This document shows, in pieces, positions 26,450-29,400 of a stretch of DNA of 64,000 nt. This DNA comes from Octopus vulgaris (lineage: Eukaryota). Position numbers: made by a program. The stretch is taken from contig OX597821.1 of the NCBI GenBank assembly GCA_951406725.2, positions 78,616,001 through 78,680,000 of the forward strand, written 5' to 3'. Position 1 is the first letter of the stretch. Each line of letters begins with the position of its first letter.

Positions 26450-29400
26450 CGATAGGTAGATAGATAGATAGATATATAGATTGATAGGTATATATGTAGG
26501 TAGATAGATAGATAGACAGATACAGGCATACATACATAAAAGCACATCAAGTTTGGTAAAGAAAATGTGATCACGTGCCTTCGTTGTTGCTGTTGTGATT
26601 ATAACACCTCATTGTAAACAATGTTCCTTGTTTTTCTTGAGCGTATGTAAAGTGGTTTGTTTTGTCTCCCACTCTTAAGCAGCCAACATACAATTGTTCG
26701 GAAAAAAGGACACGTCGAAGAATATGCCAGTCACAGACGGCCTGATCCTGGGATTTAATAGTTGACATCGGAAAACTGAAACGAAGAGGGAACTGCAGTT
26801 TTCTGAATGAAATGGGAAATTTCTTCTTCTGATGGGATAAGTGGAATTCTTGCAATGAAAACGTCATCACATTTTCTACATCCATAAATTATTGCCTCGA
26901 TAAACTGTGGCAACATTTTCTTTACTACCAGTCTTGTCCCATTGAAAGGTCGTGACGGTTCAAGATTTCGGAGCGGCATACAGGAGTTCCAACTTTAAAT
27001 CGTAATAAGTGGGCAAGTAGTCCGTGAGTCTACTGTTGCTGTTGTGATTATAACACCTCATTGTAAACAATGTTCCTTGTTTTTCTTGAGCGTATGTAAA
27101 GTGGTTTGTTTTGTCTCCCACTCTTAAGCAGCCAACATACAATTGTTCGGAAAAAAGGACTCGTCGAAGAATATGCCAGTCACAGACGGCCTGATCCTGG
27201 GATTTAATAGTTGACATCGGAAAACTGAAACGAAGAGGGAACTGCAGTTTTCTGAATGAAATGGGAAATTTCTTCTCCTGATGGGATAAGTGGAATTCTT
27301 GCAATGAAAACGTCATCACATTTTCTACATCCATAAATTATTGCCTCGATAAACTGTGGCAACATTTTCTTTACTACCAGTCTTGTCCCATTGAAAGGTC
27401 GTGACGGTTCAAGATTTCGGAGCGGCATACAGGTGTTCCAACTTTAAATCGTAATAAGTGGGCAAGTAGTCTGTACGTTATGTTTATTAACAGCGACGTT
27501 TTTGGAGACAATATTGCTCTGTGACCAATTGTGGTTTTGGTAATTTTCTGTCAAGTTATGAAATACTTTGTCTTTGAGTTCATCCACAGAATGAACAACA
27601 GAAGAAAATGGCCATATTTTCATTTCTCCTGTGGCGTCTAGGGGCACCTTGCCATCGCCAAGTGTCAAAATATCCTGTTCAAATGTTGCGGACATTTGGT
27701 CAGTATGAAGTTGAGCTCGATTGTTAGTGATCAGAGTCAGGATCGTAACAAGATGACACAGAGGCGAGGACTTCACACTCGTTTGGACCTTATCTGTTCT
27801 AGTGCCTTTGGGAATGACAGGAAGGATCTGCTTGAAATCACCCGAGAACAGAAGCATTACAACTCCCACTGGAGACTGATGTATCTAATGTTTCTAGAGA
27901 TCCCTTGTAAGCCATGTTGCACTCACACAGACGACGAGGTCACACATTCTAAGGACCGGTTCCTGGTCTGAGCTTTTGCTGATGTTGCATGAAGGCATCT
28001 CAGATGCTTCTAAATTGAGAGGTAGCTTAAATGTCGAGTGTATTGTTCTACCACCGGGCAACAAAAATATCTGCAATCCCGGAACTACCGCAATATCTTG
28101 GTGCTGCCTGAACCCTGCAAGGTAGAGCGTTGTAACAAATGTTTTTTTCTGTCCCTCGGTGTTCGTGGCAGGCCATATGTGGGTAATTCATTTCCACCCG
28201 GCGTAGCAATTCTGTCTTCGATGTCAATCAGATCTCTCTTGTAGACTTCATCGTTGATGCCCTCTATATCAGCATAGAGCAGTGAAACTTGCCGCTTAAT
28301 GTCTTCACCAAGGTCGTCTCCGTACTTGAGCAATAACGAGGAAAACTCGCACAGTTTGTATGTCTATAGCAATACTGCAAATAGTGCCCTGAGACTTTTA
28401 GGTGGTTTCAATACAATACACGGGCTTTTGATAGACCTTGTCGCATTCAGGCATCTCTGTACGTTGCGCAGACATAACCATCAACTGTATGAGGGCCAGG
28501 AAAGTAGTTGGACCTCTGACCTCTTCTAGTAGTAGACGACGTTAGAGACACTCGTGTTGACTGGGATGTACTGTGTAAATCGCCCAAGGCAATTGTCAAA
28601 CTTAATGCCGGGGTAACCATGAACATCTTGATCTGCTTTTTTCGGAGACATTTTATCCATTCTAGGTATAGTAGGATGGAATCTGTTCATACAGCAAGGT
28701 TTGAGCGAATGGGTCACCTTGACAAAGCTTAAATAATGCAGTGAGTGTCGTGTCCCTCGGTTCTTCTGCCAACAGAGAAGCATTAACATCGGTGATGTAC
28801 ACCCATTGACCCTTTTCCATGTGAACTGATGGAAGGTGGGATGTCGCTTGTGAAGTGGAAAGCCAAAGATAACTTCGTTCCTACTTATGTATCGTCACAC
28901 CTGATAGTAAGTCACCTCATCCCAGCAGCGTTCTTGTTGAAGGCCAAATATTGGTGTGCCGCAACCTTTGTTGACATACGTATAAACGTACTTGATTTTG
29001 CTTTGTCTATTTCTTTTACATTTAGTTTAATCCAGTATTTGCCATGAAAGGGGCTTTTTGCCATTGATTTATCATGGTCCGTTGTTCTAGTTTTAGTTTG
29101 CATTTCATGTGTTTTACCACTTTTGTTGTTTCTTCTTCCACATATTTGTTAGGTAGTATGACTTATTTGTCAGCTTCCTTAAATATGTAAACAGTTTTTT
29201 TTTGTTCGTTTTCTGTGGCTATTTGCATTAGATTTCCTTGCTTCTGAAGTAGTTATTTTTGCCGTCCAATGGTGGTTATTTTGTAATAGTTTTCTAGCTG
29301 TATAAGGCCTCTACCACCTTCTATACGTTGTATATATAACCTTTCTATGTCAGATTGTGGGAGGTGCATCCTAGAGCCTGGCATTATTTTTCTGGTATTC

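What the first reader, a model, noticed from the sequence alone, without database searches (positions are those of the whole stretch)
27918..28346. 429-bp apparently identical tract between arms inside a dead Helitron: arm-to-arm gene conversion
Seen: 27918-28346 and 46216-46644 read as exact reverse complements (the ORF-track translations are also identical), while adjacent Helitron sequence shows many substitutions and indels. The Helitron is frameshifted, so protein selection is an unlikely cause. At ~5% background divergence, zero mismatches in 429 bp is very improbable (0.95^429). Established: palindrome arms on mammalian Y chromosomes homogenise by gene conversion. Inference: the same process acts patchily on this invertebrate palindrome.
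Basis: partly seen in the sequence, partly recalled or inferred. Interest (0 to 1): 0.75.

Follow-up and report, generated by a model that had tools for sequence, protein, structure and literature searches.

The report
Gene-conversion patch in an old palindrome
Two 429-base stretches on opposite arms of an old, diverged inverted duplication are letter-for-letter identical, most likely because one arm was recently copied onto the other during DNA repair, a well-known process seen here in what looks like an octopus genome.

Summary
Window 27918-28346 is the exact reverse complement of 46216-46644, with 0 of 429 mismatches. Both copies sit in a large palindrome: arms about 17969-34822 and 38557-56201, with a spacer of about 3.7 kb. 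The arms differ by 8.4% in substitutions overall and by 5-7% next to the tract. The next longest exact run is 162 bp. None of 20,000 uniform re-placements of the differences gave a run of 429 or more.

The differences between the arms look like real mutations. CpG-context sites differ at 18.7% and other sites at 5.7%, and there are 20 arm-specific indels of 60 bp or more.

The tract lies in a broken PIF1-type helicase remnant of a Helitron. No Rep domain was found, a stop codon sits inside the tract, and all 13 changed codons in the flank change the amino acid. Selection on a protein therefore does not explain the identity.

The best explanation is one recent, short, non-crossover gene conversion between the arms (confidence 0.7). 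A second, older candidate lies at 30655-30954. An assembly or polishing artefact cannot be excluded without reads. The mechanism is well known, so interest is low to moderate.

The parts
27918..28346 (.). Left-arm copy of the 429-bp identical tract
   Evidence: 0 of 429 mismatches to the reverse complement of 46216-46644. Longest exact run in the arm alignment.
46216..46644 (.). Right-arm copy of the 429-bp identical tract
   Evidence: It lies 17,869 bp from the left copy.
17969..34822 (.). Left arm of the palindrome. The inner end is fuzzy, and the alignment is robust only up to about 33628.
   Evidence: A chain of antidiagonal BLAST blocks at 80-97% identity. MAFFT gives 12,886 matches and 1,179 mismatches.
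38557..56201 (.). Right arm of the palindrome
34823..38556 (.). Spacer between the arms, about 3.7 kb. No Pfam domain was found in its 16 scanned ORFs.
26574..28894 (-). Helitron-derived helicase remnant in the left arm. It is broken into several frames and has no Rep domain. The outer limits are approximate.
   Evidence: PF05970 PIF1 matches in ORFs 27897-28187 (E 1.5e-8) and 27447-27884 (E 4.1e-14). Helraiser 7lcc_A is the best PDB hit for 2 of 5 fragments. The nearest named relative, from Octopus bimaculoides, carries PF14214 plus PF05970.
45642..47452 (+). The same helicase remnant in the right arm. The limits are approximate.
   Evidence: PF05970 matches in ORFs 46375-46665 (E 5.3e-9) and 46678-46932 (E 2.8e-14).
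30655..30954 (.). Second low-divergence segment on the left arm. It is a candidate older conversion tract, AT-rich and non-coding.
   Evidence: 2 differences in 300 sites. Pointwise P is 3.9e-8 at the arm-wide rate, and 0 of 2,000 uniform permutations reach it. Alignment shown.
43649..43948 (.). Right-arm partner of the second low-divergence segment

Best explanation
A single, recent, short non-crossover gene conversion between the two arms of an old inverted duplication. The steps are inferred as follows. A break or gap in one arm, inside the Helitron helicase remnant, was repaired using the homologous stretch of the other arm, about 18 kb away on the same chromosome or sister chromatid, as template. 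This overwrote about 430 bp and erased the 24-30 differences that had built up there. Both tract ends coincide with small clusters of differences, which is where heteroduplex extension between 5-7% diverged sequences would be expected to stop. The arms overall are about 92% identical, so conversion here is sporadic and far slower than mutation. It does not homogenise the palindrome as happens in mammalian sex-chromosome palindromes. The 300-bp segment at 30655-30954 with 2 differences may be an earlier event of the same kind. Shown: the identity, its statistical excess, the neutrality of the sequence, and the age and reality of the palindrome. Inferred: the repair mechanism, the direction and the timing.
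For: Exact identity over 429 bp, with flanks at 6.8% (20 of 293) and 7.2% (12 events in 167 bp). 0 of 20,000 uniform permutations reach 429, and local analytic P is 4e-8 to 5e-6. Expected substitutions are 23.9-30.3 against 0 observed, although the tract holds 18 CpGs. The palindrome is real and old: CpG-context sites differ at 18.7% (134 of 717) against 5.7% (689 of 12,041) elsewhere; there are 20 arm-specific indels of 60 bp or more, including a 1,334-bp mariner in the left arm only; and there is a left-only tandem duplication. There is no protein constraint. The PIF1 match starts at profile position 31, only 10 residues after a stop codon that lies inside the tract. In the flanking helicase piece, 16 differences fall on codon positions [6, 8, 2], and 13 of 13 changed codons change the amino acid. 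The sequence is not conserved in other copies: the Octopus sinensis model P0001 is only about 85% identical in amino acids across the tract. No Rfam family or tRNA overlaps the tract. No third copy exists in the window. The tract length of about 0.4 kb is typical of non-crossover conversion tracts (recalled, not tested). A second low-divergence patch of similar size exists.
Against: There are no reads, no second individual and no orthologous locus to check, so a consensus, polishing or gap-fill artefact is not excluded. With only two sequences, donor and direction cannot be told, and the phylogenetic signature of conversion was not tested. Recombination between sequences 5-7% diverged is expected to be strongly suppressed by mismatch repair (recalled), so such an event should be rare. 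Divergence along the arms is overdispersed (200-site bins have mean 14.6 and variance 43), so the uniform null overstates significance for the second segment. It does not affect the main tract, which also passes the local tests. Tract GC (46.4%) is only slightly above the flanks (41-44%), so no GC-bias signal can be claimed.
Confidence: 0.7

Rival explanations
1. Assembly artefact. The two arms really differ in the tract, but consensus calling, short-read polishing with multiply mapped reads (possibly drawn from many genomic copies of this Helitron family), or a gap filled with reads from the other arm wrote the same letters into both places.
For: The sharp edges and the length of about 430 bp would also fit a patch. 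At least one further copy of this repeat exists in a related genome (P0001), so multi-mapping is conceivable. No reads were available to check.
Against: The window has no N and no visible gap. The flanks differ by 5-7%, which is enough for both short and long reads to be placed on the correct arm, so collapsing about 24-30 true differences is unlikely (inference). The rest of the two arms kept 1,179 substitutions and many indels apart, with a biological CpG signature. That argues against a pipeline that tends to homogenise these repeats.
Confidence: 0.15
2. Conversion involving a third copy elsewhere in the genome. Both arms, or first one arm and then the other, were overwritten from another member of the same repeat family rather than directly arm to arm.
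For: Other copies of this segment exist in octopus genomes (P0001, about 85% amino-acid identity). Ectopic conversion among dispersed repeats is documented, for example among human LTRs (PMC4921805, search listing and abstract start only).
Against: It needs two events with identical end points on both arms, or one ectopic event followed by an arm-to-arm event. No third copy lies in the 64-kb window. The only outside copy seen is about 15% different in protein.
Confidence: 0.05
3. Selective constraint. The 429 bp, or the perfect duplex that the two copies could form in a transcript, is functional and is kept unchanged in both arms.
For: The Octopus sinensis gene model P0001 uses a homologous stretch as its terminal coding exon, which hints that such sequence can be transcribed. 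A perfect inverted pair could form double-stranded RNA.
Against: Zero change at every site, including 18 CpGs, exceeds any ordinary constraint. The helicase frame is broken inside the tract. The flanking coding sequence evolves without constraint. There is no Rfam or tRNA match. The outside copy differs by about 15% in protein across the same stretch.
Confidence: 0.03
4. Chance or a local mutation cold spot.
For: Divergence varies along the arms (overdispersion).
Against: 0 of 20,000 permutations reach the observed run, even with the local rate and with the tract counted in that rate. P(0 differences) is 4e-11 to 7e-14 given CpG-aware rates. Both flanks are at or above the background rate.
Confidence: 0.01

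Closest known systems
Arm-to-arm gene conversion in mammalian sex-chromosome palindromes (human and ape Y; primate and mouse X)
   Same: Large inverted duplicates (arms over 10 kb) around a spacer of a few kb, with non-reciprocal copying between the arms. Sources: abstract starts of PMC8600007, PMC3723533, PMC8981503 and bioRxiv 10.1101/800185 in the listing. Rozen et al. 2003 was seen only as a reference.
   Different: Those arms stay above 99% to 99.9% identical through frequent conversion and carry testis-expressed gene families. Here the arms are about 92% identical. No cellular gene domain was detected apart from weak sub-threshold zinc-finger matches at the inner end (34015-34227); the arms are otherwise transposon debris. 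Only one clear patch and one possible patch are homogenised.
Inverted repeats in Caenorhabditis maintained by proposed gene conversion (PMC1803023)
   Same: An invertebrate case where inverted-repeat arms are more alike within a species than between orthologues, with gene conversion proposed as the cause (passages read).
   Different: Those repeats are short (arms of about 0.1-2 kb), have short spacers, hold functional heat-shock gene pairs and are almost wholly identical. Here a 16-kb non-genic palindrome is mostly diverged.
Ectopic (non-allelic) gene conversion between transposable-element copies, e.g. among human LTRs (PMC4921805)
   Same: Short conversion tracts between dead repeat copies with no selection involved (search listing and abstract start only).
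   Different: There the partners are dispersed copies. Here they are the collinear partners of one inverted segmental duplication, and the Helitron fragment pre-dates the duplication, because homology continues on both sides of it.

Membership tests
Arm-to-arm gene-conversion tract in a palindrome | Two collinear homologous arms in inverted orientation | tested here: met
   A chain of 21 antidiagonal blocks links 17969-34822 with 56201-38557. Global alignment.
Arm-to-arm gene-conversion tract in a palindrome | A discrete tract with significantly fewer differences than its flanks and the rest of the arms | tested here: met
   0 of 429 in the tract against 6.8% and 7.2% in the flanks. 0 of 20,000 permutations reach it. 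Scan statistic P of 2e-14.
Arm-to-arm gene-conversion tract in a palindrome | Identity not explained by selection on a product | tested here: met
   The PIF1 frame is broken inside the tract. 13 of 13 changed flank codons are non-synonymous. No RNA family or tRNA. An outside copy is about 15% different in protein.
Arm-to-arm gene-conversion tract in a palindrome | Phylogenetic signature: in the tract the two arms group within the genome, while the flanks group by arm across species or individuals | not testable with these tools
Arm-to-arm gene-conversion tract in a palindrome | Tract confirmed in raw reads (not an assembly artefact) | not testable with these tools
   No reads were available.
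Mammalian-type sex-chromosome palindrome kept alike by conversion | Arm-to-arm identity above 99% | tested here: not met
   91.6% identity at aligned sites (12,886 of 14,065).
Mammalian-type sex-chromosome palindrome kept alike by conversion | Arms carry multi-copy, germline-expressed genes | tested here: not met
   Pfam matches at or above the curated cut-off in the scanned arm ORFs were transposon domains only: PIF1 and a Tc1-type transposase HTH in 118 of 154 left-arm and 99 of 177 right-arm ORFs, and mariner. All other matches were weak and below the cut-off, including C2H2 zinc-finger-type hits in ORF 34015-34227. Expression could not be tested.
Helitron (Rep/Hel rolling-circle transposon) | PIF1-like helicase domain whose nearest relatives are Helitron proteins | tested here: met
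   PF05970 in both arms. Helraiser 7lcc_A is the best PDB hit for 2 of 5 fragments, in collinear order (E 0.0031 and 0.0098). 2 of 4 database hits carry PF14214 plus PF05970, including an Octopus bimaculoides protein at 67% identity.
Helitron (Rep/Hel rolling-circle transposon) | Rep (HUH) nuclease domain, Pfam Helitron_like_N PF14214 | tested here: not met
   No PF14214 match at E <= 0.01 in any scanned ORF of either arm. This copy is a 5'-truncated or otherwise Rep-less remnant.
Helitron (Rep/Hel rolling-circle transposon) | Element ends (5' TC, 3' hairpin plus CTRR, insertion between A and T; recalled definition) | not tested
   No family consensus was available to locate the ends.

The most novel reading that the evidence does not exclude
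The palindrome is transcribed, and the two perfectly complementary 429-bp Helitron-derived stretches form a long perfect RNA duplex that is used, for example as a source of small RNAs against this Helitron family or as a substrate for the RNA editing that is so extensive in cephalopods. Conversion events that restore perfect pairing would then be favoured rather than merely tolerated. The only hint is that an NCBI gene model in Octopus sinensis uses a homologous stretch as an exon. Nothing here tests transcription.
Probability: 0.03. Interest if true: 0.6.

Novelty: new member of a known kind. Interest (0 to 1): 0.25.

Why it matters
Taken alone, this is a clean textbook-style example of a short non-crossover conversion tract between diverged inverted repeats, in a lineage (apparently an octopus) where I found no such report. 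Of the 17 papers that held all four terms 'octopus', 'genome', 'gene conversion' and 'inverted', none of the 10 listed concerned palindromes, judged by title and abstract start. It has two practical uses. First, conversion can still occur between repeats that are 5-7% diverged, so ages of transposon copies and duplications inferred from pairwise divergence in repeat-rich cephalopod genomes can be locally reset. Second, the sharply bounded tract gives a direct estimate of tract length, about 0.43 kb. It also bounds the timing: the event falls in the last 10-12% or so of the palindrome's divergence history, from the 95% upper bound of 0.7% divergence. It does not open a new question.

Tried and rejected
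I repeated it with a longer word size.

(2) Rep domain. No PF14214 match appeared in 118 of 154 left-arm ORFs or 99 of 177 right-arm ORFs of 45 aa or more. The ORFs I left out were in the mariner, microsatellite and low-complexity stretches and in the outer right arm, whose left-arm counterparts were scanned. I therefore describe the element as a Helitron-derived helicase remnant, not a whole Helitron.

(3) PDB searches with three further fragments (28529-28894, 28665-28880, 26963-27337) gave nothing meaningful.

(4) Structured RNA. Within 27000-29500 there was only one sub-threshold snoRNA-like match (22.1 bits against a gathering score of 50), at 27495-27581, outside the tract. Nothing in the whole window reached gathering score, and there were no tRNAs.

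(5) Third copy or outgroup in the window: none by blastn (word size 9) or tblastx. The direction of conversion could therefore not be polarised.

(6) Independent protein records spanning the right tract boundary: 0 hits among 34 candidates of similar length, and only P0001 among 503 longer candidates.

(7) GC-biased conversion. Tract GC is 46.4% against 41-44% in the flanks. Without an outgroup this is uninformative.

(8) Clustering of differences at both tract edges (3 substitutions in 9 bp on the left; an indel plus nearby change on the right). By my own post-hoc hand estimate this is only weakly unusual, and I make no claim from it.

Full report
**Observation.** Window 27918-28346 equals the reverse complement of 46216-46644 with 0 of 429 mismatches (both stretches read). 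The finding stands as written.

**Setting.** A self-comparison shows 21 antidiagonal blocks that link about 17969-34822 with about 56201-38557 at 80-97% identity. This is a large palindrome with arms of about 16-17 kb and a spacer of about 3.7 kb.
- A MAFFT alignment of the arms has 12,886 matches, 1,179 mismatches and 119 gap events, which is 8.4% substitution divergence.
- Sliding 500-site identity is 90-96% over most of the arms, drops to about 70-80% near the spacer, and peaks at 98.2-98.4% only in the windows that hold the tract.

**Is the palindrome real and old?** Yes.
- CpG-context sites differ at 18.7% (134 of 717) against 5.7% (689 of 12,041) elsewhere. That is a biological mutation signature, not a sequencing-error pattern.
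- There are 20 arm-specific indels of 60 bp or more. They include a 1,334-bp mariner element with an open 327-aa transposase frame, present in the left arm only and inserted in a (TA)n run. They also include a left-arm-only 441-bp tandem duplication whose copies are 99.09% identical.

**Is the tract more than chance?** Yes.
- The longest exact runs are 428/429, then 162, 127, 113 and 105.
- With 908 difference events in 12,844 alignable sites, 0 of 20,000 uniform re-placements gave a run of 429 or more. The null mean maximum was 100 and the largest was 236.
- Three local windows, with the tract itself counted in the rate, also gave 0 of 20,000, with analytic P of 4e-8 to 5e-6.
- A scan statistic puts the tract at pointwise P of 2e-14.
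- CpG-aware expectations are 23.9 substitutions at local rates or 30.3 at arm-wide rates, against 0 observed, although the tract contains 18 CpGs.
- The flanks are not gradually cleaner. There are 20 substitutions in 293 bp on the left and 12 events in 167 bp on the right, so the edges are sharp.

**What the sequence is.**
- The tract lies on the minus strand of the left arm, and the plus strand of the right arm, within pieces of a PIF1-like helicase domain. PF05970 matches ORFs 27897-28187 and 27447-27884 on the left and 46375-46665 and 46678-46932 on the right.
- Helraiser, a Helitron transposase (PDB 7lcc_A), is the best PDB match for 2 of 5 fragments tested, in collinear order: chain residues 1171-1238 at E 0.0031 and 1352-1406 at E 0.0098. 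The other three fragments gave nothing meaningful.
- Of the 4 longer database relatives of the 146-aa piece, found among 586 candidates, 2 carry Helitron_like_N plus PIF1. One is an Octopus bimaculoides protein at 67% identity.
- No Helitron_like_N match occurs in either arm, so this is a Rep-less, helicase-only Helitron remnant.
- It is dead. The PIF1 match begins at profile position 31, only 10 residues after a stop codon that lies inside the tract. The next upstream ORF (28088-28363) is in another frame. The two PIF1 pieces are separated by stops at 27885-27896.
- Where a Walker A loop would be expected the frame reads GQKKT. The canonical motif is recalled, not tested.
- In the ungapped helicase piece next to the tract, 16 differences fall on codon positions [6, 8, 2], and all 13 changed codons change the amino acid. 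There is no purifying selection.
- Homology between the arms continues on both sides of the remnant, so the Helitron fragment was already there when the inverted duplication formed.

**Origin.** The two best named protein hits are from Octopus sinensis (P0001, about 85% amino-acid identity) and Octopus bimaculoides. The window is therefore probably cephalopod. I rest that on these two hits only.
- P0001, named 'leucine-rich repeat-containing protein 4-like', maps with residues 201-296 inside the tract on both arms and with residues 186-199 at 42009-42050 in the right arm.
- It appears to be a gene model that absorbed a copy of this repeat.
- The copy differs by about 15% in protein across the tract, so this stretch is not intrinsically invariant.

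**Other explanations checked.**
- No Rfam family reaches its gathering score anywhere in the window. At a relaxed threshold the only match in 27000-29500 is a 22-bit snoRNA-like hit outside the tract. There are no tRNAs.
- No third copy of 26421-29015 exists in the window by blastn or tblastx.
- Similar-length protein records spanning the right boundary: 0 hits among 34 candidates.

**Interpretation.** The best explanation is one recent non-crossover gene conversion between the arms, about 0.43 kb long.
- The 95% upper bound on divergence within the tract (0.7%) is 10-12.5% of the local background. At a constant rate, the event falls within roughly the last tenth to eighth of the palindrome's divergence history.
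- After removing the tract, a second segment stands out: 30655-30954 paired with 43948-43649, with 2 differences in 300 sites. Pointwise P is 3.9e-8 at the arm-wide rate, and 0 of 2,000 uniform permutations reach it (alignment).
- Divergence is overdispersed (200-site bins have mean 14.6 and variance 43), so I treat this second segment as a candidate older tract, not an established one.
- The arms as a whole are about 92% identical, so conversion here is sporadic. It is the same mechanism as in Y-chromosome palindromes but not the same regime.
- That mismatch repair suppresses recombination between diverged repeats, which would explain why patches are rare and stop at difference clusters, is recalled knowledge and was not tested.

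**What remains open.** Without reads I cannot exclude that consensus calling, polishing or gap filling wrote identical letters into both arms. I rate that at about 0.15. The flanks are distinct enough for reads to be placed correctly, and the pipeline kept more than 1,100 other differences between the arms apart. Donor arm, GC bias and the phylogenetic signature could not be tested, because no eukaryotic genome or read collection was open.

**Prior knowledge.**
- Arm-to-arm conversion is established for primate Y and X and mouse X palindromes. I saw only the abstract starts of PMC8600007, PMC3723533, PMC8981503 and bioRxiv 10.1101/800185 in the listing.
- It has been proposed for a willow sex chromosome (PMC7023750, listing only).
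- It has been proposed for Caenorhabditis inverted repeats (PMC1803023, passages read).
- Ectopic conversion among dead repeats is also described (PMC4921805, listing only).
- A search for 'octopus', 'genome', 'gene conversion' and 'inverted' found 17 papers. None of the 10 listed dealt with palindromes, judged by title and abstract start. I did not consult supplements.
- This is therefore a new instance of a known process.

**Context of the window.** The sequence outside the arms holds two LINE-type retrotransposon remnants: Exo_endo_phos, RVT_1 and zf-RVT domains at about 5870-8798 on the minus strand, and RVT_1 plus a weak zf-RVT match at about 12219-16042 on the plus strand. No cellular gene domain was found in the 102 of 114 ORFs scanned. 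The 12 ORFs left out lie in the outer right arm, whose left-arm counterparts were scanned.

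Noticed in passing
window 30655-30954 and 43649-43948: A second low-divergence patch between the arms: 2 differences in 300 sites, with a sharp left edge, AT-rich and non-coding. It may be an older conversion tract of similar size.
   Followed up: partly
window 26585-27025 and 27034-27474: A young 441-bp tandem duplication (99.09% identical) inside the helicase remnant of the left arm only. The right arm has one copy (about 47022-47452). It lies about 450 bp from the identical tract and is similarly recent, so both might stem from repair activity in the same region.
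   Followed up: partly
window 25063-26396: A 1,334-bp mariner-type element present in the left arm only, inserted in a (TA)n run. It has an uninterrupted 327-aa frame (25254-26237) with Transposase_1 and Mos1-type HTH domains, so it is possibly a young copy.
   Followed up: partly
window 42009-42050 and 46244-46532 (right arm): The NCBI model 'leucine-rich repeat-containing protein 4-like' of Octopus sinensis (P0001) ends in two exon-like pieces that match these repeat-derived stretches. The second reads the helicase remnant out of frame. The model probably includes transposon sequence. Its LRR part has no match in the window.
   Followed up: partly
window 48752-49818 (right arm; left-arm counterpart about 23183-24300): A degraded Tc1-type transposase. 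HTH_Tnp_Tc3_2 (E 1.2e-8) is above the Pfam cut-off; the HTH_28, HTH_32 and DDE_3 matches are weak and below it. The right arm also has 386-761-bp stretches here that the left arm lacks.
   Followed up: no
window 5870-8798 (-) and 12219-16042 (+): Two LINE-type retrotransposon remnants just outside the left arm, carrying endonuclease, reverse-transcriptase and zf-RVT domains.
   Followed up: no
window 27909-27917 and 28346-28351: Differences cluster right at both edges of the identical tract: 3 substitutions in 9 bp on the left, and an indel plus nearby change on the right. This could mark where heteroduplex extension stopped, or it could be chance. By my post-hoc hand estimate it is only weakly unusual.
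   Followed up: partly
window 33526-34935 and 38499-40690: Arm identity falls to about 68-79% toward the spacer, with many small right-arm-only insertions. The inner boundary of the palindrome is eroded and rich in simple repeats.
   Followed up: no
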